A DNA stretch of 64,000 nucleotides from an uncultured Candidatus Saccharibacteria bacterium (lineage in GTDB: Bacteria > Patescibacteriota > Saccharimonadia > Saccharimonadales > AWTP1-31). Where the stretch lies: NCBI GenBank assembly GCA_964643545.1, contig CAZXTE010000001.1:19101-83100 (forward strand). Direction: 5' to 3'. A program made the position numbers and the translations under genes. A model generated the notes under the pieces. It saw nothing but the letters and a program-made list of their open reading frames with translations. It searched no databases and was not told where the DNA came from. Below are positions 26,876 to 40,800 of this stretch, in pieces (within the stretch, counting starts at the first letter, position 1; every line of letters begins with the position of its first letter).

Positions 26876-28363
26876 TTGAAAAGTTCTTTTTTGAAGGTGC
26901 GCGTATCGAAAAGTCTGTTCATTGTTATTTCTAGCTCAATTATTTTATCAATCCTGGTTCAACCGCTTATAGCTCTAAAAACCTCTGCGCTGGGCACCTA
27001 CCCTAACGCTTCTATTGCAAACCGAGCCCTCGGCTATACGGGCCAATGGGGCGGTAACGCCTGCAAAGATGTTGGTAGGAGTGGATATACTGGTGGTTAC
27101 CCTGGCGGTCAAACCTACGATGGTCAGTGCCGGGCGTTTGTTAACTGTGTGGTTTGGTCCGTTAGTAATCGTACGCAGTGGTTGGGTGGCGGAGACTACT
27201 TTAGCCCACTCGCAGCCAATGGTCATGAAATCAAAGATATTAATGGTTTAGTAAAAGGTGATGTCATCCAGGTCGGGCAAGGCACGCACACATTCATAAT
27301 TGTTGGTCGTACGGGCGGCAATATATTCAGAGTAGTGGACTCGAACAGCAGGCTAGATGAGGTGGTCCGAACATATGACCGTAAAGTCACCCTCGACAAT
27401 ACAAATCGTGCGTTTCGATTAGGTCTGGCTGATGGGCCTCAACCAACTGTGAACGGAGGGGTCGGGACAAGATTGCTCGGTGATGTAAATGGAGATGGGC
27501 TAGACGATGCGATCGTTATGTTTAAAGACACAGGGACAGCAATGGTCGCTCTTTCGCAAGGCAGCAGCTTCTCTAACCCTTCCGCCTGGAGTTATGGCCA
27601 TTCCATGAACGCAAGTAATTACTTTTTGGCCGATGTAAATGGCGATAAAAAGAAGGACTTGGTCGGATTCTTCGCCCAGGACGGGCGCTGGAAAGTTAGC
27701 CTATCTTCTGGGACCGGGTTTTGGTCACCCGTAGAGTGGGCGTATGGGCAGGGTGTTGGTACGAGTAATCAATGGTTAATGGATGCAAATGGTGACGCGA
27801 AGGCCGACATCATAACTCTAGATAAACAAAACGGCGACTGGTATGTAAGCAGCTCATCCGGGAGTGGGTTCTGGCCACCAAAGCGCTGGATTAGTGGCCA
27901 TGGAGTCGGAAGTGACGATCAAGCAGCAGGAGATTTTAACGGGGACGGCAGAGCTGATGTTGCCATTTGGCTTCGGGATGGCTCGTGGTATGTAGCCCTA
28001 TCTACGGGCAGCACGTTCGGCTATCCTGGCCACTGGTCTGCCGGGCAAGGATTAAATAGCAGCCAACGCCTCGTTGGGGATGCAAACGGCGATGGCAGAG
28101 CTGACACAGCATACTTCTACGCCGATACGGGCAGGTGGTACGTATCTACCTCTTCTGGTTCAGGGTTCTGGACACCAACGGAGTGGGCGTATGGGCAGGG
28201 CGTAGGGACCACGGAGCGTTTCTTGGGCACGACCACAAAAGATTCGCTAGCTGACATGGTTACATTTGACAGAAACACGGGAGATTGGTGGGTTAGTGTA
28301 TCGTCTGGATCAGGCTTTTGGCCACCTTCTCGTTGGATCAGTGGTCACGGTAAGGCTTCTTAG
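26876..28363 (+). CDS. secreted CHAP/NlpC-P60-like amidase domain fused to six FG-GAP-type repeats
   Basis: TTG start with GAGGG 6 nt upstream, then a signal peptide. Cys/His pair GQCRAFVNCVV ... GTHTFIIVG ... VDSN. Repeats carry D-x-N-G-D-G-x-x-D calcium-loop motifs (GDVNGDGLDD, ADVNGDKKKD, DANGDAKAD, DFNGDGRAD, DANGDGRAD). Confidence 0.7.
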   Translation: MKSSFLKVRVSKSLFIVISSSIILSILVQPLIALKTSALGTYPNASIANRALGYTGQWGGNACKDVGRSGYTGGYPGGQTYDGQCRAFVNCVVWSVSNRTQWLGGGDYFSPLAANGHEIKDINGLVKGDVIQVGQGTHTFIIVGRTGGNIFRVVDSNSRLDEVVRTYDRKVTLDNTNRAFRLGLADGPQPTVNGGVGTRLLGDVNGDGLDDAIVMFKDTGTAMVALSQGSSFSNPSAWSYGHSMNASNYFLADVNGDKKKDLVGFFAQDGRWKVSLSSGTGFWSPVEWAYGQGVGTSNQWLMDANGDAKADIITLDKQNGDWYVSSSSGSGFWPPKRWISGHGVGSDDQAAGDFNGDGRADVAIWLRDGSWYVALSTGSTFGYPGHWSAGQGLNSSQRLVGDANGDGRADTAYFYADTGRWYVSTSSGSGFWTPTEWAYGQGVGTTERFLGTTTKDSLADMVTFDRNTGDWWVSVSSGSGFWPPSRWISGHGKAS

Positions 28364-33284: not shown

Positions 33285-34355
33285 ATGGCAATCGTTAGTC
33301 TGCAACTAGAAAACTTTCGTACATACTACCGGGATAGTTTCGAATTCTCGGAAGGGGTTAGTATTATTGTTGGTCCAAATGCCAGCGGTAAAACCAATCT
33401 TCTGGAAGCTATACTACTGCTCTGTGAAGGCCAATCGTTTCGCGCCAAAGATCACGAACTTATTAGCCACGAAAAAGACTATGCCCGAATTGAAGGTTTG
33501 GTGGGTATAGATAAGCGCATTGTTTTGATAGAGCACGATGGGATAGAGCGAAGCACAAAAACACACCAGATAAACACCCAAAACCTAAAACGTTTACCAC
33601 CAGCAAAACGAGTGCCGGTGGTGCTGTTCGAGCCGGAAATTTTACAGCTTTTCCAGGGTGGACCCGAAAAACGAAGAGAGTATATAGATAGTCTGATTAG
33701 CCGGACTACCCCAGGATTCAACACAATACTGCGTCAGTACAGGCGGGTCTTAAGCCAACGAAACGCGTTGCTAAAAAGGCAGCAAGCACCAAAGCAGGAA
33801 GAGTTCTTTGCCTGGGATGTCCGACTAAGTGAATTGGGTGGTCAGATTGCCACTGCGCGCAATCAGCTCATCGACAATCTCAACAGCTCAATAAATGAGG
33901 AGTATCAGAAGATAGCTAGCAAGAACAATAATGTGAGCCTTGAGTATCTCTCTAAAATATCGTCATTGTCGTATAACACCAAAATGCTCCACATGCTCGA
34001 GCAGGTATTCCAAACCGATCGGGAACGGGGGTATACAAGTGTCGGGCCTCACAGAGACGACTTGCAAGTGCTTTTTGATGGTAAAGATGCGAAACAGGTA
34101 GCCTCCCGCGGCGAGATGAGATCATTGGTGTTAACACTAAAGATACTTGAGCTAAAGATCGTAGAAGAGGCAGCCCAAAAGCAACCAATACTACTACTCG
34201 ACGATGTGTTTAGCGAACTTGATGGTGCTCGCCGCAAGGCCCTGACAGAATCAATACAACAATACCAAACCTTTATTACGACCACAGACGCAGACCTAAT
34301 CGTGAAGTATTTTATTGGAGCCTGCGAAATAATCCCCACTAACAGAGCAGTCTAA
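33285..34355 (+). CDS. recF: DNA replication and repair protein RecF
   Basis: Walker A GPNASGKTNLLEA, signature SRGEMRSLVLTLK and Walker B LLLDDVFSELD. Confidence 0.85.
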   Translation: MAIVSLQLENFRTYYRDSFEFSEGVSIIVGPNASGKTNLLEAILLLCEGQSFRAKDHELISHEKDYARIEGLVGIDKRIVLIEHDGIERSTKTHQINTQNLKRLPPAKRVPVVLFEPEILQLFQGGPEKRREYIDSLISRTTPGFNTILRQYRRVLSQRNALLKRQQAPKQEEFFAWDVRLSELGGQIATARNQLIDNLNSSINEEYQKIASKNNNVSLEYLSKISSLSYNTKMLHMLEQVFQTDRERGYTSVGPHRDDLQVLFDGKDAKQVASRGEMRSLVLTLKILELKIVEEAAQKQPILLLDDVFSELDGARRKALTESIQQYQTFITTTDADLIVKYFIGACEIIPTNRAV

Positions 34356-34987
34356 CGGTTGTTTATATTCCGTATGACTGACTCGGGAACTTTTGGAAAC
34401 TCTTTGATGTACAGAATGATCGTTGGACCTGCGGCAATTGACCAGGTGTTACCACTCTTCTTTAGAACAACCAACAAGATATCATCTTGTTCTGGGTCTA
34501 GCGGGAGGAGCTTCCCGGCATACCAGTCACCTCGCAGATAAAGCTTCCCATCGGAAATAGTGTATTTTGAGATATCATCGAAGTCGCTACGTATAACAGA
34601 CTCCACTGCAGACTTTTGAGGAACGAGCATTTCTTGCAAACGACTGTCGCTATACGAAAGTTCGGGGGTTTGAACGGTAGTTTTAGAGCTAATATTCAGT
34701 TGCTTGGATTCTGTTTTATACACACCACCACTAAAGACTGCGTTGTAATATCCTTTGGAGACTCTGACCGTTGTTTTCTCCTGAGTACGTACGATCTCTT
34801 TGGTGCTGGCTGGGTAGTTGGTGCCAGACTGGGTTAGTGTAATGGTTGTCCCTTGCTCTGGGATCAGAGTGACGCGCTTAAGGCCAAAGAAATATCGAAA
34901 ACCAAACCAGGCAACAAGCCCAAAAACCAACACAATAGCACCGAACGTTACCAGGCGCTTAATTTGAATTCGGGGTGGCTCTTCCAT
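34352..34987 (-). CDS. bitopic membrane protein, unknown function (distal gene of the T4SS-like operon)
   Basis: 211 aa. It has a single N-terminal TM (LVTFGAIVLVFGLVAWFGF) and a beta-rich ectodomain. 4-nt tail-to-tail overlap with recF. Confidence 0.6.
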   Translation of the reverse strand: MEEPPRIQIKRLVTFGAIVLVFGLVAWFGFRYFFGLKRVTLIPEQGTTITLTQSGTNYPASTKEIVRTQEKTTVRVSKGYYNAVFSGGVYKTESKQLNISSKTTVQTPELSYSDSRLQEMLVPQKSAVESVIRSDFDDISKYTISDGKLYLRGDWYAGKLLPLDPEQDDILLVVLKKSGNTWSIAAGPTIILYIKEFPKVPESVIRNINNR

Positions 34988-34988
34988 G

Positions 34989-35387
34989 TTAGTCTCCTGA
35001 CTGAAGGTCTCTAAATATTATTTCCAAATCACTAGGGTCATAACCTTGGGAGCGTATCCAGGTTAGTGCTTCTTGCCTGGCCTGTGGATCGGGGGCTTTA
35101 ATGAGAAGCGCTACCGAATCGTTACTGTCGGGTGAGACCAATGACTTCCCGTAATCTATACGGAAGTAGAGGCCGAGTGCAGGGAGTTTATCTACGATGC
35201 TGCTTTTTGCACGGACTGCCGCATCTTTTTCTTGGTAAGACGTACCACCTGCTCTTTCTTTTTCTTGGGTGCTTTTTGTATTGTTTGTTTGGGTCCTTGT
35301 CGTCACCCCAAGAATAAGTAGCCCGAACATGACGATGCCAATAAGTACGGCTATGACAATGATTTTGCTGCGTGGGTTTTCCTGCAT
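34989..35387 (-). CDS. bitopic membrane protein, unknown function
   Basis: 132 aa. N-terminal TM (IIVIAVLIGIVMFGLLILGV), a polar linker and a small C-domain. Packed 1 nt from the next gene. Confidence 0.6.
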   Translation of the reverse strand: MQENPRSKIIVIAVLIGIVMFGLLILGVTTRTQTNNTKSTQEKERAGGTSYQEKDAAVRAKSSIVDKLPALGLYFRIDYGKSLVSPDSNDSVALLIKAPDPQARQEALTWIRSQGYDPSDLEIIFRDLQSGD

Positions 35388-35400
35388 TACTTCGTCTCCC

Positions 35401-37821
35401 TTATTTAATTCTCGCTACCGAGAAGTGATGGCCACGATCTTCCAGGTAGGCGTTACCAGCTTGTGGCGCCTGGGAGCCGAGTGAAGCCTGGCGCATGTTA
35501 TACGTGCCTCCCTGTGTCCCGACGTAGATGAATGTGTGTCCCTGGTCACCCGCTGCATAGATCAGTATGTCACCCGGCAACAGCTTGCTTGTGTCGTTTA
35601 TATCGTCAAAAACGGTGTACTTTTCGGGATGACTTCGGAGATACTCAAGTTGTGTTCCGGTGTCGACTTTCGGGTAACTCGTGTCCACCCCGCTACTGAG
35701 CATAACCGTAGCCACAAACCCACCACAGTCAGTTACGTCGGGTGTCGGATTGAATTGTTTCTTGGTATCGAGGAATTTTTGTGTTGCCGTTGCCCCATGG
35801 CCTTTGTCCGGCCACGCGAGGCTTATTGCGGTAGCCACAACATCACCCGCAACAGCAGCATTCCCCCCGGCATCAGGAGACCCTGTGCAGGTACCTGCAC
35901 TAGACCCACCACCACCCCCAACATAGTCTGCACCAATTGCAACCTTGTCGTAGTCACCCTCAGTGTCGCCAGGCCAAGCGATTTGTGGGGCGCCCGGTTT
36001 CTCATCGAGGCCGCCTAAATAGGCAAAGATAGCTCCCGCCCCCATGCGTCCGCTGTTGTCCAAGCCGTAATTACCGTATCCATAGGCGGCAGAGCCCAGA
36101 TATGCACTCCAGGTATTGAGCCATTCGTTGGCCCCAAAAGTTCCATCCTGAATGGCTGCAATAACCTCGGCACCAGTCTTCTGTGGGTTTCTTCTTGTTG
36201 CATGAAGGATAAGAACCCAGGTCGAGTAGTCGATATCTTGCACATTAGACCCATAACCACGTCTAGCTGGGGCACGTCCAGGGACTTGCTCGGGAGTATC
36301 AAAGAATCCGGGCACGCCCACATCGGCGGAATGCCACTTGTACTGCTTGCCGCCCAACTCAGCAGCAGTCGGAAGCTTCCGGCCATTAATCATAGATTGT
36401 TCTGGGTTCGAACTGCCTTCACGCCAGTGCGTTGCTGCTAGTGCCTGCCACGGCACGCCCCAACGCGCCCCAATAGACTTGTAGACAGGGATCTCCCTCA
36501 CGATATCACTTTTTATAAGTGCATCGAGTTTTGACTCTAACCCCTTGCCTTTAATCATTACATTATCGGGGTAGGTCTTGTAGCTGGCGTCAGCGGGTGT
36601 CCCTGGGTTACCGCCACCCCCGCCAGGAGCTGGCGCCCCGGGTTGGCGGATTGCATTAATACGATCCAAAGACTGCTGGATGCGCTGATTCGTTATTTTT
36701 CCTGCCTTATAGTCGGATTCAAGCCGGTCAAGCACCTTCCCAACCGATGATTCATTCACAAAAACAGCCATGTCTGCGCCTGCCGCGATCGCCATAGACG
36801 TTGCCTCCTCTACGCCGTATTTAGACTTAATGGCTTCCATGGTGCCTATGTCGTCTGTCATTGCGACACCGTTAAAGCCGTATTTATCGCGCAATAGTTT
36901 ATAGGTCTCGGGGCTCAAACTCGTTGGTATGCCACCAGTTGTTAGTCCGGGCACATTAAGGTGGCCCAGCATAACAGCAGACCTCGGGTTCTTTAGTAGT
37001 TTTTCGTAAGGCTTTAAATCCCTACCCTCCAGAGTTGCTAAGTCACTGGTTGTCACAACCTGTTTGTGCGAATCGCCATTGGCATAACCATGACCTGGGA
37101 AGTGCTTAAACACGGGCGTAAGGTTGCCTTGGCGGAGTCCTTCGGCAAACGCGCCAGACTTTTTTTCTACAACCGCAGGATCTTTCGAGAATGCCCTGTC
37201 CAAGGGGCTAATAACGGCAGAGCCACCATCGAGGTCTGCCACAGGCGCAAAATCCATGGTTAGTCCAACGGCTGCAAGCTTGTCCGCTTGGCCCTTCGCA
37301 ATGCTCTGAACTTCTGTGTCTGTTTTCGTACCCATTTCCCGAGCACTGGGCACAACGCCGAGCGGACGAAAGCGCTGTACTTTACCGCCTTCTTCGTCGG
37401 CAGCCACCAACATGGGTACAGGACCGGCTTTGAACTTATCGATCCACGTTTTATCTTTCTGCTCAAATTGTCGTCCCATCAAGAAGACTCCCCCCACATG
37501 GCTATCAATCAAGGCTTGAGCTTCTGACTCATTTGTCACAGAGACCATCAACAGTTGGGCGAGCTTCCCGCGGATGCCCCACTCAGCTGGAATTTCATAG
37601 CTGGCGCCAGTTGTTGGGCCTGTTGTTTCGCACTTCTCTTTGGCGTAGTTTGTCTTGTGGTGTTCCGTGTTTAGGAGGATGTGGTACAGATCGTCCTCGG
37701 GTATTTTTGCAGCCATTCCAAGTGGGATGATTGCTTGGAAATACAGCATGGTGAGAATGAACGACGCGCAAAAGAGGCGGAACAGGTGCTTTTTCTTCAC
37801 TATAGACATAGACATAGGCAT
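35401..37821 (-). CDS. secreted multi-domain cell-wall hydrolase: GH3 (NagZ-like) + unknown middle domain + C-terminal NlpC/P60-like cysteine peptidase
   Basis: Signal peptide. GH3 motif KHFPGHGYANGDSH. Middle region has WQALAATHWREGSSNP. The C-terminus has the Cys/His pair DCGGFVATVM ... GHTFIYVG. Start taken at ATG 37821, 7 nt after the upstream stop. Confidence 0.7.
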   Translation of the reverse strand: MPMSMSIVKKKHLFRLFCASFILTMLYFQAIIPLGMAAKIPEDDLYHILLNTEHHKTNYAKEKCETTGPTTGASYEIPAEWGIRGKLAQLLMVSVTNESEAQALIDSHVGGVFLMGRQFEQKDKTWIDKFKAGPVPMLVAADEEGGKVQRFRPLGVVPSAREMGTKTDTEVQSIAKGQADKLAAVGLTMDFAPVADLDGGSAVISPLDRAFSKDPAVVEKKSGAFAEGLRQGNLTPVFKHFPGHGYANGDSHKQVVTTSDLATLEGRDLKPYEKLLKNPRSAVMLGHLNVPGLTTGGIPTSLSPETYKLLRDKYGFNGVAMTDDIGTMEAIKSKYGVEEATSMAIAAGADMAVFVNESSVGKVLDRLESDYKAGKITNQRIQQSLDRINAIRQPGAPAPGGGGGNPGTPADASYKTYPDNVMIKGKGLESKLDALIKSDIVREIPVYKSIGARWGVPWQALAATHWREGSSNPEQSMINGRKLPTAAELGGKQYKWHSADVGVPGFFDTPEQVPGRAPARRGYGSNVQDIDYSTWVLILHATRRNPQKTGAEVIAAIQDGTFGANEWLNTWSAYLGSAAYGYGNYGLDNSGRMGAGAIFAYLGGLDEKPGAPQIAWPGDTEGDYDKVAIGADYVGGGGGSSAGTCTGSPDAGGNAAVAGDVVATAISLAWPDKGHGATATQKFLDTKKQFNPTPDVTDCGGFVATVMLSSGVDTSYPKVDTGTQLEYLRSHPEKYTVFDDINDTSKLLPGDILIYAAGDQGHTFIYVGTQGGTYNMRQASLGSQAPQAGNAYLEDRGHHFSVARIK

Positions 37822-37828
37822 GGTGTTA

Positions 37829-40800
37829 TTAGCTCCCAGTATGAGACCAATGCCATGGCTCATTCCAGTACTGCTTTAGATTATACTTTCCGGCGTTATC
37901 TATGAGCCAGTCCCACATCGGCATGCCGGGGGCAACACGAGGGTTGCTGGGGCTAGCTTTCCCACCATTTTTTGTGCCAAACTCCTCAGGGTGACCAACT
38001 CGAGTAAGCGCAAAATCTACGGCATCACCAGACTGATGTCTAGATGTTCCAGGCTTTGCGACATCGGAGTAGACGCCGTTAGGGCACTTATCATCTTTTG
38101 CGCACAGCTCTTGTTGGTGCTTCATGGTGCGAAAACTACTGGAGGCTTTGGGTGAGACGCCATCGCTCTTCATGGCGTTAAACATGTTCACCCAATCATT
38201 TGATTTGTCTGCTGCCACGAGTACGTTACCATCTGCCCCATTTACGTAATATTGACTACGCGGATTACTCTCCTCGCTTGAACTTGGGAAGCCAAGGATC
38301 GCACACAGGGTTATCTTCTTTAGAACGCCACCTTCATACCCATCGGCAAGCCCCACGTTCTTGGTGCCACTTGCACAGGTTCCGTCGCCCGTACCTCCCG
38401 TAGAGGCGGGGGGTGGTCCAAGACTCGCCACAAGAAAGTCGCTCTTTGCCAGGTATCCTGCAGCAGTATGGTGAATTTTATCTGGCGCAAACGGATACTT
38501 AGCTGGATTTTTAGCCACCTCGGCACGCCAGTCAATGGGTGTATATTTCAGGGCAGCCGCCTGGCTCGAAACTGCCGCCGCGACAGCATCGTAATTGGAA
38601 ATTTGGGTTTTTGCATTCATCCAGAATATCTTCGCCGAGGGGTTGTATTCGTGGATTTTGTCGACCATGAGTTTTATTTTGCTCGCGAACTGGGGGCTGT
38701 CTGGTCCTGGGTTTGTGCCCAGCATGACCGCTATTGTCCCGGCACGGCTAACTTCGTTTCTATCGAGGTCGATCTTTTCTAGAGATCGGTCAACGTCTAT
38801 ACCGTCGGTTGCCTGGACCTTGGTAACTTCCCACCCAGCAGTTTGCAGCTTGTTCGTTAATGAGCCTAAGTCTTTCATGCCGTTTGTCAACGAGTCGCCA
38901 ACGACGTAGACTGCATTATTGCCACCCCCACTATTTGAACCTCCGCCCCCGCTGGTGGTTTCAGATTCATAATCTTCCGGGTCGAGCACATCAGTTGTAT
39001 ATCGGCCACCAGCTGCCGCCACAGCCTTCTTATTTAGCAAGCAAGGGTTTTCCTTGGTGTGCACGTCGGTGCCCGTCTCCTTGTCCTCTATAAGCGTACC
39101 TGCAAATTCACCGCGCCCATTCGCCCAGTCTTTATCCATCTTTTCACAGACGGCGTCGGTAAGCGTGTCTGGGTCAACATCAAGTGCTGACGAATTCTTT
39201 GGAAAGCCATATTGGACGACACCAAATGGGTCAGGCTTTGCATCTGCTGCAAAGGTCTTTTTGGTGGCAAGTAAACTGCCAAAACTTTTTGACAGGCTTG
39301 TGAATGGATTTGCGAGAAGACCGGTGACGCCTGTATTGGCGGTTCTAGTCACACTGCTGGGTGTAGCCATCGCCATTTGGCTGACAAGTGATTTTGGACT
39401 CTCTGTGCTGAACATACGAGCAAAGAATGGTTGACGTTGGAATTCCTCGTTGCGCTGATTCTCTTGGTCGGCGCGAATCTCGGCTACCTGGGCGTCGGTG
39501 AGGCGTATGCCCCCCAGGCCATAGTGTGCATCATTATTCCCTGCTACATCGGCACCGCCTGCGAGCATATCGAATGTGCGGGCCCCGCTCATGTCTGCAG
39601 ACACTGGTGACGGGATTAGCCACTTCGCAATTGTTTCGAATATCTTGCCGATTTGTTCCTCAATCATCTTCTTTAGGTCAGCGTATTGAGGAAAGATCTT
39701 GCTAATTGCTGCCTCGACAGCACCTACGCCCAGATCAATGAGCTTATTGATCAAGTTAAGGATTTGTCCGATTGTGGCGTTCCATGCATCTGCCGTCTGC
39801 CCGAGCAGACTAAGTGGGGGTTGATTAAAGATGTCAGATATTTTCTGGATGACCCCATTGGTAAGCAGACTTTCCTCTGGGCAAATAAGCTTACCGGTGT
39901 CTGGCTTATTCTTATCGTCACATGTGTATTTTGGCTCTGACGCAGTGCTGCCCGTTTCTGCTGCGTATGCTTTTTGCGGCGACAGGACATCCAAAAAGGA
40001 GCTTTTTTGTATTGGTTCGCCTAGGATGTCCCCGTAGAGTGGTGCTAATTCAGCGGGTTGATTTTTGTGGTCTTTATCACCGGCGCTGTCACCCACACCA
40101 TTCGTCATGCTACCGAGCAACTCGACGTTACAATGCATGCCTTTGCACTCGTCTGCAGTTGTTCTATACAGCATGTAGGTTGCCACCATTTGCGTGCCAA
40201 TAATTTCGTATTTCCAGCGTTTCAATGCCGGCCCAGCTGACTTAGCTTTCGCGGTAATTCTGGCTGCTAGGTCAATCCAGCCAATAACAGGCAAGCCTTT
40301 CGAGGCGGCTGACCCTGCAGCCTCTCCGGCAATCTTCGCAACAACCTCTTCAACAATAAAAGCAGTTAAGCTCTTGTCTGCGAGTTTAATTGTCTTCTCA
40401 ACAATTTTTTCTACGGTCTCCTCGGTGAATTCTTTGCCAGACTTCTCAAGTGCCTCACGAATTTGTTTCTCTATTTTGTCTCTCCTCACTCCGTCATTGT
40501 CAGCTTCACCCTTCGATGCTTTGTCCGAATCACAGGCAGGATCGATGATACACTCTAATACAAAACCCAGATGTTGAGTGTAGGGTATGATGACCCGGCG
40601 ATTAATGACGAGCCTGAAGGCTCCCTTCTTTTTGTCTTTCCAGTCGTCTATGCGATCTTTTGATTTGCACGCAAAAACACACCTCCGGATGCCGTATTTT
40701 TCTTCCAGAAGTCGCCCCACCTTGAATCGGTACATAACACGCTTCCACAATGTCTCTTCTTTGAAAGACTCACGTACTTTTATGCGAACATCATTTCTGC

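What the first reader, a model, noticed from the sequence alone, without database searches (positions are those of the whole stretch)
35401..37821. Exported triple-domain hydrolase: GH3 N-acetylglucosaminidase-like + unknown domain + NlpC/P60-like peptidase
GH3/NagZ enzymes (KHFPGHG motif) are typically cytoplasmic recycling enzymes. Here the domain carries a signal peptide and is fused to a C-terminal Cys/His peptidase (DCGGFVATVM ... GHTFIYVG). A ~200-aa middle domain with WQALAATHWREGSSNP might be lysozyme-like. With the preceding gene, the operon could in principle attack glycan, O-acetyl groups, stem peptide and cross-links.
Basis: partly seen in the sequence, partly recalled or inferred. 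Interest (0 to 1): 0.55.

Follow-up and report, generated by a model that had tools for sequence, protein, structure and literature searches.

The report
Secretion-system-linked three-module cell-wall hydrolase
This gene of a tiny parasitic bacterium (Candidatus Saccharibacteria) encodes an exported enzyme with three different cell-wall-cutting modules, and it sits inside the type IV secretion gene cluster that a related species needs to grow on its host; it is a new domain combination of a known kind of protein.

Summary

The framing is off. Exported NagZ enzymes are normal in monoderm bacteria, and the closest solved relative with a described localisation, mycobacterial LpqI, is a surface lipoprotein.

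The gene lies in the Saccharibacterial type IV secretion locus: dnaA-dnaN-recF, two small genes, this gene, a 1248-aa SGNH+VanY protein, VirB4, PrgI, and a pilin array. It is the positional counterpart of SEML1_0006 (GH73 + phage-lysozyme + Cys protease). That gene is essential for epibiotic growth of Southlakia epibionticum. Six other loci carry a different domain combination in the same slot.

Verdict: a new domain-shuffled variant of a known T4SS-associated wall hydrolase. Interest is moderate.

The parts
35401..37821 (-). The gene: an exported three-module peptidoglycan hydrolase of 806 aa. An alternative start at 37863 gives 820 aa.
   Evidence: The ORF is. The 94%-identical orthologue P0001 from Ca. 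Saccharibacteria is. dN/dS over the whole gene is 0.047.
37711..37821 (-). N-terminal Sec signal peptide or uncleaved signal anchor (residues 15-51): a KKKH n-region, a hydrophobic core of about 23 aa, then G-M-A/A.
   Evidence: Sequence and hydropathy are. Positional orthologues P0002 and P0003 start with classical signal peptides ending AYA/A and TYA/A. No SignalP was run.
36655..37575 (-). GH3 N-terminal TIM-barrel domain of the NagZ / beta-N-acetylglucosaminidase type (residues 97-403). Like LpqI it is single-domain.
   Evidence: Pfam PF00933, E 1e-63. PDB 4yyf and LpqI, E 1e-70 and 1e-65. NCBIfam NagZ model NF003740 scores 162 bits, below its equivalog cut-off of 207.
37066..37107 (-). 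NagZ signature KHFPGHGYANGDSH (K253-H266), which holds the Asp264-His266 catalytic dyad. The nucleophile candidate Asp337 is at 36853-36855.
   Evidence: The Asp-His dyad as the hallmark of the NagZ subfamily is stated in PMC6572805.
36019..36540 (-). Middle module (core residues 442-615; domain with linkers 421-655 = 35899-36603). It is a Pfam-less, divergent SLT/GH23-like lysozyme-fold domain. The invariant Glu482 (36418-36420) sits in the motif P-W-Q-A-L-A-A-x-H-x-R-E-G.
35404..35862 (-). C-terminal papain-like Cys/His peptidoglycan peptidase or amidase of the NlpC/P60-CHAP superfamily (residues 668-820). Cys713 is at 35725-35727, His776 at 35536-35538, and Gln792 (35488-35490) is the likely third residue.
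37829..41575 (-). Upstream operon partner of 1248 aa: an N-terminal membrane segment, a large unassigned region, SGNH/GDSL esterase (891-1041) and VanY D,D-carboxypeptidase (1122-1247). It is the positional counterpart of SEML1_0007.
   Evidence: Pfam VanY scores 56 bits against a cut-off of 25. Lipase_GDSL_2 scores 32.4 against 32.9. SEML1_0007 is annotated Hedgehog/DD-peptidase and is essential.
41602..43515 (-). VirB4-like T4SS ATPase of the Gram-positive CD1110 type.
   Evidence: NCBIfam NF045971 scores 346.8 bits against a cut-off of 325. Pfam P-loop_TraG.
43515..45471 (-). A 290-aa protein whose positional counterparts in other loci carry the TraC-like family PF26593, and a PrgI (VirB3-like) protein of 347 aa.
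   Evidence: PrgI Pfam match, E 3e-11. Synteny with L002, L004, L005 and L007.
46548..49844 (-). A 1098-aa protein with multiple hydrophobic segments. It is the positional counterpart of SEML1_0011 in the T4SS cluster.
   Evidence: Sequence; no Pfam hit; position compared.
50447..53460 (+). Array of six VirB2-like pilin genes.
   Evidence: ORFs with C-terminal hydrophobic pilin modules. A weak T4SS_pilin hit. The same feature is described for Se ML1.
34352..35387 (-). Two small proteins immediately downstream (132 and 211 aa), each with an N-terminal hydrophobic segment. They are the positional counterparts of the essential genes SEML1_0005 and SEML1_0004.
   Evidence: Neither has a Pfam hit.

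Best explanation
This is the peptidoglycan-hydrolase component of the Saccharibacterial type IV secretion locus. In function it corresponds to VirB1, PrgK, TraG, CwlT and TcpG. In position it corresponds to SEML1_0006 of Southlakia epibionticum.

Shown by the tool results: the domain identities, the intact catalytic motifs, the operon position and conserved synteny with VirB4, and purifying selection on all three modules.

Inferred, step by step:
1. The protein is exported by Sec. It either stays tethered by its N-terminal segment or is released at the outer face of the single membrane.
2. There it takes the cell wall apart locally.
3. The SLT-like middle module (Glu482) cuts MurNAc-beta-1,4-GlcNAc bonds.
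4. The NlpC/P60-CHAP module (Cys713/His776) cuts stem peptides or the MurNAc-L-Ala link.
5. The NagZ-type GH3 module (Asp337 nucleophile, Asp264/His266 acid-base) removes the GlcNAc left at non-reducing ends of strands or released muropeptides. LpqI does this on LT products.
6. The upstream 1248-aa partner adds an SGNH esterase, presumably a de-O-acetylase that would clear the MurNAc C6-OH which LTs need. It also adds a VanY D,D-carboxypeptidase.

The result is a gap in the wall for the T4SS and its pilus. Whether the wall attacked is the cell's own or the host's is not resolved. Compared with SEML1_0006, an exo-acting GH3 replaces the endo-acting GH73 glucosaminidase, so the same bond type is cut in a different mode. 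An SLT-like module also replaces PF18013.
For: - Domains.
- Operon: the start codon lies 8 nt after the upstream stop. VirB4 (NF045971 above its cut-off), PrgI and the pilin array are adjacent.
- Synteny: six independent loci (L002-L007) hold a multi-domain wall hydrolase, or a homologue of one of this protein's modules, in the same slot. The slot lies between the 868-1124-aa protein that follows VirB4 and recF-dnaN-dnaA. On L006 VirB4 itself is off the contig. Four of the six proteins carry GH3.
- Published counterpart: SEML1_0006 is annotated Lysozyme-like + Lysozyme-like + Cysteine proteinase (template 7bk8, also our top Foldseek hit). It is essential in Tn-seq, as are SEML1_0007 (DD-peptidase) and SEML1_0008 (VirB4).
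- PMC12102498 states that these hydrolases may fulfil the VirB1 role in Patescibacteria.
- LpqI releases GlcNAc from muropeptides, including those with 1,6-anhydroMurNAc ends.
- dN/dS is 0.03-0.05 in each module.
Against: - No biochemical or localisation data exist for this protein.
- An exo-glycosidase cannot open a hole in a sacculus by itself, so its contribution to channel insertion is unclear.
- To my knowledge no characterised T4SS hydrolase contains GH3.
- The hydrophobic core is long (about 23 aa), so cleavage versus anchoring is undecided.
- I could not align the SEML1_0006 sequence directly. The correspondence is by position and domain class only.
Confidence: 0.72

Rival explanations
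1. It is a host-directed enzyme for wall breaching and nutrient scavenging. The protein, together with the upstream one, is deployed at the epibiont-host contact. It dismantles the actinobacterial host's peptidoglycan, and the GH3 module frees GlcNAc for uptake by the metabolically reduced epibiont. On this view T4SS linkage reflects co-deployment at the contact site, not channel assembly in the cell's own wall.
For: - The slot changes its domain combination in every genome examined. The combinations include GH3, GH73, PF18013, SLT-like, Amidase_2, M23, C39_2, NlpC/P60 and beta-lactamase-like modules. That pattern fits adaptation to varied target walls.
- The GH3 module's best solved relatives are actinobacterial as I recall them (6gfv is mycobacterial); I recall the organisms of 4yyf and 5iob rather than having checked them.
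- The C-terminal fold matches the T6SS wall-degrading effectors Tse1 and Tae3.
- An exo-GlcNAc-ase yields a usable monosaccharide rather than a hole.
- The counterpart gene in Se is essential only in the sense of epibiotic growth on a host.
Against: - There is no evidence about which wall is the substrate.
- Gram-positive conjugative T4SS hydrolases are also modular and variable.
- A Sec-type N-terminus argues against translocation through the T4SS.
- GlcNAc auxotrophy of this organism was not established. Only 64 kb was seen, and one literature search on this point found nothing relevant.
Confidence: 0.2
2. It is a housekeeping enzyme for cell-wall turnover and recycling. It would be an LpqI-like or B. 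subtilis NagZ-like exo-glucosaminidase fused to autolysin modules. It would serve growth, division and amino-sugar recycling of the cell's own wall, and would merely neighbour the T4SS genes near oriC.
For: - The closest characterised relatives of the GH3 module are recycling enzymes.
- The locus lies next to dnaA-dnaN-recF, a conserved chromosomal region.
- Strong purifying selection.
Against: - The gene is translationally packed into the T4SS operon.
- It keeps this exact position next to the protein downstream of VirB4 in divergent genomes, even while its own domains are swapped.
- The published T4SS cluster boundaries (SEML1_0006-0019) include the counterpart gene.
Confidence: 0.06
3. It is a remnant of a phage tail lysin or endolysin in a degraded prophage. 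The idea comes from 'phage tail (tip) lysozyme' names on related proteins.
For: - Relatives carry PF18013 'Phage tail lysozyme' and NCBI names such as 'phage tail tip lysozyme'.
Against: - The target has no PHROGs match.
- None of the neighbouring genes scanned gave a phage-family match.
- Synteny with chromosomal dnaA-recF and the T4SS is conserved.
- dN/dS of about 0.04 is not what a decaying gene shows.
Confidence: 0.02

Closest known systems
SEML1_0006 of Candidatus Southlakia epibionticum ML1 (Wang et al. 2023, Cell; PMC10633639)
   Same: It occupies the same chromosomal slot: dnaA-dnaN-recF, two small genes, hydrolase, a ~1100-aa DD-peptidase protein, VirB4, a ~290-aa protein, PrgI. It has the same three-module logic of glycosidase + lysozyme-like + C-terminal cysteine protease. 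Its C-terminal ECOD template, 7bk8, is also our top Foldseek hit. It is essential in Tn-seq.
   Different: SEML1_0006 is 643 aa with GH73 (PF01832) + PF18013. This protein is 806 aa with a NagZ-type GH3 and a Pfam-less SLT-like module. hhalign between that module and PF18013 gives probability 0.2%. No direct sequence comparison with SEML1_0006 was possible.
Cell-wall hydrolases of Gram-positive conjugative T4SSs (PrgK of pCF10, TraG of pIP501, CwlT of ICEBs1/Tn916-type elements, TcpG of pCW3)
   Different: To my knowledge none carries a GH3 exo-beta-N-acetylglucosaminidase. This T4SS is chromosomal and pilus-bearing. In the studied relative it is required for epibiotic growth, and it lacks recognisable coupling and relaxase proteins according to Wang et al..
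LpqI (M. tuberculosis, PDB 6gfv) and other exported monoderm NagZ enzymes (4yyf, 5iob, B. subtilis NagZ/YbbD)
   Same: The GH3 module aligns over its full length at E 1e-65 to 1e-70. It has the KH[FI]PG[HL]Gx4D[ST]H signature and the DD nucleophile stretch. Like LpqI it is a single TIM-barrel, and it is exported.
   Different: LpqI is a stand-alone lipoprotein for recycling. Here the module has no lipobox, is fused to two lytic modules and is embedded in a T4SS operon. It scores below the NCBIfam NagZ equivalog cut-off (162 against 207).
MltF / family-1 lytic transglycosylases (Pfam SLT, GH23)
   Different: The target itself has no Pfam SLT match, even at E 10. Its subfamily has lost AYNxG and the GLMQ-type motif and has a large insertion at about residues 500-545. 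Whether it acts as a transglycosylase or a hydrolase is unknown.
Tse1/Tae1 and other T6SS amidase effectors; MagC
   Different: Sequence identity is only 12-16%. The secretion route differs, and the similarity is at superfamily level only.

Membership tests
GH3, NagZ-type beta-N-acetylglucosaminidase subfamily | Full-length GH3 N-terminal (TIM-barrel) domain above the curated threshold | tested here: met
   PF00933 scores 216 bits against a cut-off of 27, covering profile positions 2-314 of 316.
GH3, NagZ-type beta-N-acetylglucosaminidase subfamily | Signature K-H-[FI]-P-G-[HL]-G-x4-D-[ST]-H holding the Asp-His dyad | tested here: met
   KHFPGHGYANGDSH at 253-266 aligns column for column with 4yyf and LpqI. 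The dyad is named as the subfamily hallmark in PMC6572805.
GH3, NagZ-type beta-N-acetylglucosaminidase subfamily | Catalytic nucleophile Asp in the [ST]-D-D stretch | tested here: met
   MTD337D338IGTM aligns with YTDDLSSM of 4yyf and FSDDLSGM of LpqI. Which of the two Asp residues is the nucleophile comes from my own knowledge of NagZ structures.
GH3, NagZ-type beta-N-acetylglucosaminidase subfamily | NCBIfam NagZ equivalog score (NF003740) | tested here: not met
   162.4 bits against a cut-off of 207. The domain is related to the canonical cytoplasmic NagZ but is not an equivalog of it.
GH3, NagZ-type beta-N-acetylglucosaminidase subfamily | Exo-beta-GlcNAc-ase activity on muropeptides | not testable with these tools
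   Needs an enzyme assay.
NlpC/P60 (Pfam PF00877) / CHAP superfamily | Pfam NLPC_P60 gathering score | tested here: not met
   18.3 bits for the whole protein and 22.2 bits for the isolated domain, against a cut-off of 23.
NlpC/P60 (Pfam PF00877) / CHAP superfamily | Papain-like alpha+beta fold | tested here: met
NlpC/P60 (Pfam PF00877) / CHAP superfamily | Conserved catalytic Cys followed by His in the canonical order | tested here: met
   Cys713 is at least 90% conserved and His776 is invariant in alignment A2. The profile places them on Spr's DCSGFV and RHVGIY stretches.
NlpC/P60 (Pfam PF00877) / CHAP superfamily | Third polar triad residue | tested here: inconclusive
   The column aligned with the His of Spr's 'VHAS' is Gln792 here and is S, D, E or Q in relatives.
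SLT / GH23 lytic transglycosylase (lysozyme-like) | Match to the family model | tested here: not met
   The target's middle domain has no Pfam hit even at E 10. Relatives P0132 and P0180 give sub-threshold SLT matches in the homologous region (E 0.007 and 0.0017).
SLT / GH23 lytic transglycosylase (lysozyme-like) | Catalytic Glu at the end of a helix, followed by S or G | tested here: inconclusive
   Glu482 is invariant in A1 and A3. It aligns with the Glu of MltF's 'YQES' stretch via the profile of relatives, but only at E 0.06.
SLT / GH23 lytic transglycosylase (lysozyme-like) | Lysozyme-like fold | tested here: inconclusive
SLT / GH23 lytic transglycosylase (lysozyme-like) | AYNxG motif | tested here: not met
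   Y and N are invariant in the distant relatives (A3). The target's subfamily has L-H-A-T-R at that place.
PF18013 Phage_lysozyme2 (the middle module of most positional orthologues) | Profile similarity to PF18013 domains | tested here: not met
   hhalign of A1 against nine PF18013 domains from positional orthologues gives probability 0.2%. P0180 carries both domains side by side.
T4SS-associated cell-wall hydrolase (VirB1 functional class, Gram-positive type) | Encoded within a T4SS gene cluster next to VirB4 | tested here: met
   The position is conserved in L002-L007.
T4SS-associated cell-wall hydrolase (VirB1 functional class, Gram-positive type) | Exported, with a glycan-cleaving module plus a peptidase module | tested here: met
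   Export is predicted from the sequence only.
T4SS-associated cell-wall hydrolase (VirB1 functional class, Gram-positive type) | Required for T4SS function | not testable with these tools
   Only the positional counterpart SEML1_0006 has been tested, and it is essential in Tn-seq.

The most novel reading that the evidence does not exclude
The hydrolase slot of the Saccharibacterial T4SS locus is a fast-shuffling, host-wall-directed 'can-opener'. In this lineage it has recruited a NagZ-type GH3 module, possibly acquired from the Actinobacteria host phylum, together with a previously unrecognised SLT-like family. With these it degrades host peptidoglycan down to free GlcNAc at the contact site. 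If so, part of the essentiality of the T4SS cluster would reflect nutrient or amino-sugar acquisition rather than only channel insertion.
Probability: 0.15. Interest if true: 0.7.

Novelty: new variant of a known kind. Interest (0 to 1): 0.4.

Why it matters
[quoted passage not shown] What it does is still unknown.

The two hydrolase genes downstream of virB4 belong to the essential set. This window shows that the enzymology of that slot is not fixed. The endo-glucosaminidase and phage-lysozyme modules of the studied strain are replaced here by an exo-acting NagZ-type GH3 and a divergent SLT-like module. Other genomes carry still other combinations.

That gives a natural set of domain-swap variants for testing two questions. 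Which wall, the cell's own or the host's, is the substrate? Is muropeptide or GlcNAc release part of the epibiotic lifestyle?

The work also flags a small SLT-like domain family with no Pfam model and a widespread NlpC/P60-like C-terminal module that scores below the Pfam threshold. Both currently go unannotated.

Tried and rejected
- Middle domain as PF18013. This was expected from positional orthologues, but hhalign gave probability 0.2% and P0180 has both domains, so I rejected it.
- Sequence-level solved relative for the middle domain. The A1 profile against the PDB gave only chance hits to AMA1 at E 1.4.
- The third homologue search, using profile A1, returned only 7 proteins because of the word index. 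It extended the family with M15_4, Amidase_2 and PF18013 partners but gave no annotated link.
- Prophage or phage-lysin origin. The target has no PHROGs hit and the context is chromosomal, so I rejected it.
- Lipoprotein. There is no lipobox; R-L-F-C does not fit L-[AS]-[GA]-C. Rejected from the sequence itself.
- Taxonomy of the nearest non-Saccharibacterial GH3 hits, to test transfer from Actinobacteria. The clusters carry no names, so this is unresolved.
- Literature on a Saccharibacterial dependence on GlcNAc, or on NagZ in these organisms. Two searches found nothing relevant.
- The genome-contig scan found only the 94% orthologue. I could not fetch the Southlakia sequence for direct alignment.
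Full report
**1. What is there**

Window 35401-37863 on the minus strand is one uninterrupted ORF of 820 aa. It lies 8 nt after the stop of the preceding gene and 11 nt after a GGGAG Shine-Dalgarno sequence. The upstream ATG at 37863 has no such element and overlaps the preceding gene. NCBI nevertheless annotates the 94%-identical orthologue P0001 from the longer start. The choice does not change the interpretation. Residue numbers below use the 820-aa ORF.

The only close relative in the species-level genome collection is a Candidatus Saccharibacteria MAG (DAISWP010000001). The window therefore comes from a Saccharibacterium (TM7, Patescibacteria/CPR).

**2. N-terminus**

From Met15 the sequence reads MPMSMSIVKKKHLFRLFCASFILTMLYFQAIIPLGMA/AKIPEDD. 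It has a basic n-region and one hydrophobic stretch of about 23 aa. That stretch is the only strongly hydrophobic segment in the protein (maximum 19-residue Kyte-Doolittle mean 1.96 at residues 30-48). A G-M-A site follows. This fits a Sec signal peptide or, given the long core, an uncleaved signal anchor. In both cases the three catalytic modules end up outside the membrane. There is no lipobox. Positional orthologues P0002 and P0003 begin with textbook signal peptides. SignalP was not available, so export is a sequence-based inference.

**3. GH3 module (residues 97-403)**

Pfam PF00933 matches across the whole profile at E 1e-63. The best solved relatives are 4yyf (E 1.9e-70), LpqI 6gfv (E 1.1e-64) and 5iob (E 2.5e-57). 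All other NagZ structures follow. The NagZ-subfamily signature KHFPGHGYANGDSH (253-266) is intact, including the Asp264-His266 dyad. MTD337D338IG aligns with the nucleophile stretch of the solved enzymes.

The module scores below the NCBIfam NagZ equivalog cut-off (162 against 207). It is related to the cytoplasmic Gram-negative NagZ but is not an equivalog of it.

LpqI is a lipoprotein on the outer face of the mycobacterial membrane and an exo-acting enzyme. It releases GlcNAc from soluble muropeptides, including those with 1,6-anhydroMurNAc ends. Like this module, it is a single TIM-barrel (PMC6572805). B. subtilis NagZ/YbbD is named a lipoprotein in its PDB entries. An exported NagZ is the normal state in monoderm bacteria.

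**4. C-terminal module (residues 668-820)**

Pfam NLPC_P60 stays just under threshold: 18.3 bits in the whole protein and 22.2 bits for the isolated domain, against a cut-off of 23. A homologue search recovered 44 proteins. In most of them this module is the C-terminal end of other wall-hydrolase architectures, such as PF18013+M23, Amidase_3 and SLT_2. They include actinobacterial proteins named 'phage tail tip lysozyme'.

In a 30-sequence alignment Cys713 (D-C-G-x-F-V) is at least 90% conserved and His776 (G-H-T) is invariant. The profile finds Spr/MepS, RipA and CwlO in the PDB at E 0.002-0.2. It places Cys and His on the catalytic Cys and His of Spr, and Gln792 on Spr's third residue.

- SagA, RipB, LytE, CwlO and MepS
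- two structures whose PDB descriptions name Tn916-like elements, 9ubf and 4hpe

Foldseek's top hit is MagC 7bk8, followed by Tse1. Bond specificity (gamma-D-Glu-diamino acid endopeptidase or MurNAc-L-Ala amidase) cannot be deduced.

**5. Middle module (core residues about 442-615)**

Gly/Pro-rich linkers flank this module. It matches no Pfam family even at E 10 and no PDB sequence. It is rare. An exhaustive phmmer search of 1.84 billion representatives finds 5 proteins at E<1e-10. Besides the orthologue P0001, these have the module followed by Peptidase_M23, and in three of them a beta-lactamase-like (Beta-lactamase2) domain precedes it. This is the position PF18013 holds in related proteins.

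A further ring of distant relatives shares the motif [IV]-P-W-[QE]-x-L-A-x-x-H-x-x-E-[GAS]-x-x-[NDS]-P...S...G. Most of them also share A-Y-N-x-G and S-P-Y-V-x-N-x-x-D-x-x-H. Their partner domains are M15_4, Amidase_2, M23, PF18013 or the same C-terminal Cys peptidase.

Glu482 is invariant in every member. Four weak, largely independent lines point to an SLT/GH23-type lysozyme fold:
- A profile of the distant relatives hits only MltF in the whole PDB (12 entries, E about 0.06). It aligns the invariant Glu with the Glu of MltF's 'YQES' stretch, which from my own knowledge of SLT-family enzymes is the catalytic Glu. It also aligns AYNxG with MltF's AAYNIG.
- Relatives P0132 and P0180 give sub-threshold Pfam SLT matches exactly at the homologous stretch (E 0.007 and 0.0017).
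- The domain context always involves peptidoglycan.

The module is not PF18013. hhalign gives probability 0.2%, and P0180 carries both domains. The target's own subfamily has replaced AYNxG with L-H-A-T-R and carries a large insertion. Its chemistry could therefore differ. It is nevertheless as constrained as the GH3 module (dN/dS 0.034). I rate 'lysozyme-like, SLT-type glycan-cleaving module' at about 0.65.

**6.

On the minus strand, reading with transcription, the order is:
- a 1098-aa protein with many hydrophobic segments
- a 323-aa protein
- PrgI
- a 290-aa protein
- VirB4 (NCBIfam CD1110-type conjugal ATPase, 347 bits against a cut-off of 325)
- a 1248-aa protein with SGNH and VanY domains
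- this gene
- two small proteins with N-terminal hydrophobic segments

Then come recF, dnaN and dnaA on the other strand. On the far side lies an array of six VirB2-like pilin genes.

This is the gene order of the T4SS cluster SEML1_0006-0019 of Southlakia epibionticum ML1. That cluster is essential for epibiotic growth in Tn-seq (PMC10633639). In that strain the gene in this position, SEML1_0006 (643 aa, essential), is annotated PF01832 (GH73 glucosaminidase) + PF18013 + 'Cysteine proteinases' with ECOD template e7bk8A1. That is the same structure as our top Foldseek hit. SEML1_0007 is a ~1100-aa protein with a C-terminal DD-peptidase domain, and SEML1_0008 is VirB4.

Quinonero-Coronel et al. 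state that these peptidase and lysozyme homologues downstream of virB4 may take the VirB1 role in Patescibacteria (PMC12102498).

**7. The slot is conserved but its content is not**

I looked up six homologues of different parts of this protein. All sit in the same slot, between the 868-1124-aa protein that follows VirB4 and recF-dnaN(-dnaA). On L006 VirB4 itself is off the contig.

| Locus | Protein | Domain order |
|---|---|---|
| L002 | P0002 | GH3-PF18013-C39_2 |
| L003 | P0003 | GH3-Amidase_2-SLT |
| L004 | P0009 | GH3-PF18013-M23 |
| L005 | P0007 | beta-lactamase-like-GH3-PF18013-M23 |
| L006 | P0122 | middle module-M23 |
| L007 | P0123 | unassigned region-C-terminal Cys peptidase |

A GH3 module in the T4SS hydrolase is thus recurrent in a Saccharibacterial clade, and the modules are shuffled freely. 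I found no mention of GH3 in this role in the T4SS papers or in their held supplementary text.

**8. Most likely mechanism**

Shown: the domain identities, the intact catalytic residues, operon membership, conserved linkage to VirB4, and purifying selection.

Inferred:
- The protein is exported by Sec and acts at the outer face of the membrane.
- The SLT-like module cleaves MurNAc-GlcNAc bonds.
- The Cys peptidase cleaves stem peptides.
- The GH3 module trims the GlcNAc exposed at non-reducing ends or on released (anhydro)muropeptides, which is the reaction documented for LpqI.
- The upstream partner contributes an SGNH esterase. It plausibly removes 6-O-acetyl groups that block LTs; this last point is established knowledge about Ape-type esterases and was not tested here.
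- The upstream partner also contributes a VanY D,D-carboxypeptidase.

Relative to SEML1_0006, GH3 replaces GH73. Both cut the GlcNAc-beta-1,4-MurNAc bond, one from the strand end (exo) and the other within the strand (endo). The enzymology of the slot is therefore conserved in kind while the modules are non-orthologous.

**9. Rivals**

- A host-directed role in breaching and scavenging (about 0.2) is not excluded. The shuffling, the Tse1-like fold and the production of a usable monosaccharide make it attractive. It overlaps with the main explanation and differs only in which wall is the target.
- A pure housekeeping recycling role (about 0.06) is hard to reconcile with the conserved operon position.
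- A phage remnant (about 0.02) is contradicted by the absence of PHROGs hits, by the chromosomal synteny and by dN/dS of about 0.04.

**10. Novelty and score**

The kind of protein is known and published: an exported, multi-module wall hydrolase encoded downstream of virB4 in Saccharibacteria. The particular composition is new. It combines a NagZ-type GH3, an unannotated SLT-like family and a sub-threshold NlpC/P60 module. The observation that the slot is combinatorially variable also appears to be new.

A specialist would find this useful rather than startling. It offers natural domain-swap variants for a genetically tractable system. Interest 0.4; new variant of a known kind.

Noticed in passing
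window 50447-53460 (+): Six consecutive small genes each end in a hydrophobic VirB2-like pilin module. The first (328 aa) has a long Cys-rich N-terminal extension. This matches the essential pilin array described for Southlakia epibionticum.
   Followed up: partly
L002-L007 (gene two positions downstream of virB4) and window 35401-37821: The hydrolase slot holds a different domain combination in every genome inspected. The modules seen are GH3, PF18013, SLT-like, Amidase_2, M23, C39_2, NlpC/P60-like and beta-lactamase-like. The flanking genes stay syntenic.
   Followed up: partly
window 36655-37575 (GH3 module): The best solved relatives (4yyf, LpqI 6gfv, 5iob) are actinobacterial as I recall them, and many next-best database hits are GH3 fused to Ser/Thr kinase domains. 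Actinobacteria are the hosts of cultivated Saccharibacteria, so transfer from the host phylum is possible. The hit clusters carry no taxon names, so this was not tested.
   Followed up: partly
window 37829-41575 (-): The 1248-aa upstream protein has about 880 N-terminal residues with no family match. This stretch includes a Gly-rich membrane segment near residue 100 and precedes the SGNH and VanY domains. The Lipase_GDSL_2 hit is 0.5 bit below Pfam's cut-off.
   Followed up: no
proteins P0134 and P0153 (Kribbella): The same C-terminal Cys/His module ends actinobacterial PF18013+M23 proteins that NCBI names 'phage tail tip lysozyme'. The module is thus widespread, and the Pfam NLPC_P60 model misses it.
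   Followed up: no
window 34352-35387 (-): Two small proteins with N-terminal hydrophobic segments (132 and 211 aa) have no Pfam match and follow the hydrolase directly. Their positional counterparts SEML1_0005 (PEGA-like) and SEML1_0004 are essential in Tn-seq.
   Followed up: no
window 58970-60439 (-), 57957-58700 (+), 26876-28363 (+): A YkuD L,D-transpeptidase with a PG_binding_4 domain, a VKOR-family protein and an FG-GAP-repeat protein are encoded nearby. The first suggests 3-3 cross-links in the organism's own wall.
   Followed up: no
window 60570-62180 (+): A 536-aa protein matches only a class-II glutamine amidotransferase domain (GATase_7) and has no SIS domains. It is therefore not an obvious GlmS. 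This bears on whether the organism makes amino sugars de novo, but that question was not resolved.
   Followed up: no
window 54830-55033 (-), 55741-55817 (+), 62219-62308 (+): There are four tRNA genes: Ser-TGA, Ser-GCT, Arg-GCG and Ser-CGA. No other Rfam family reaches its gathering score in the window.
   Followed up: yes
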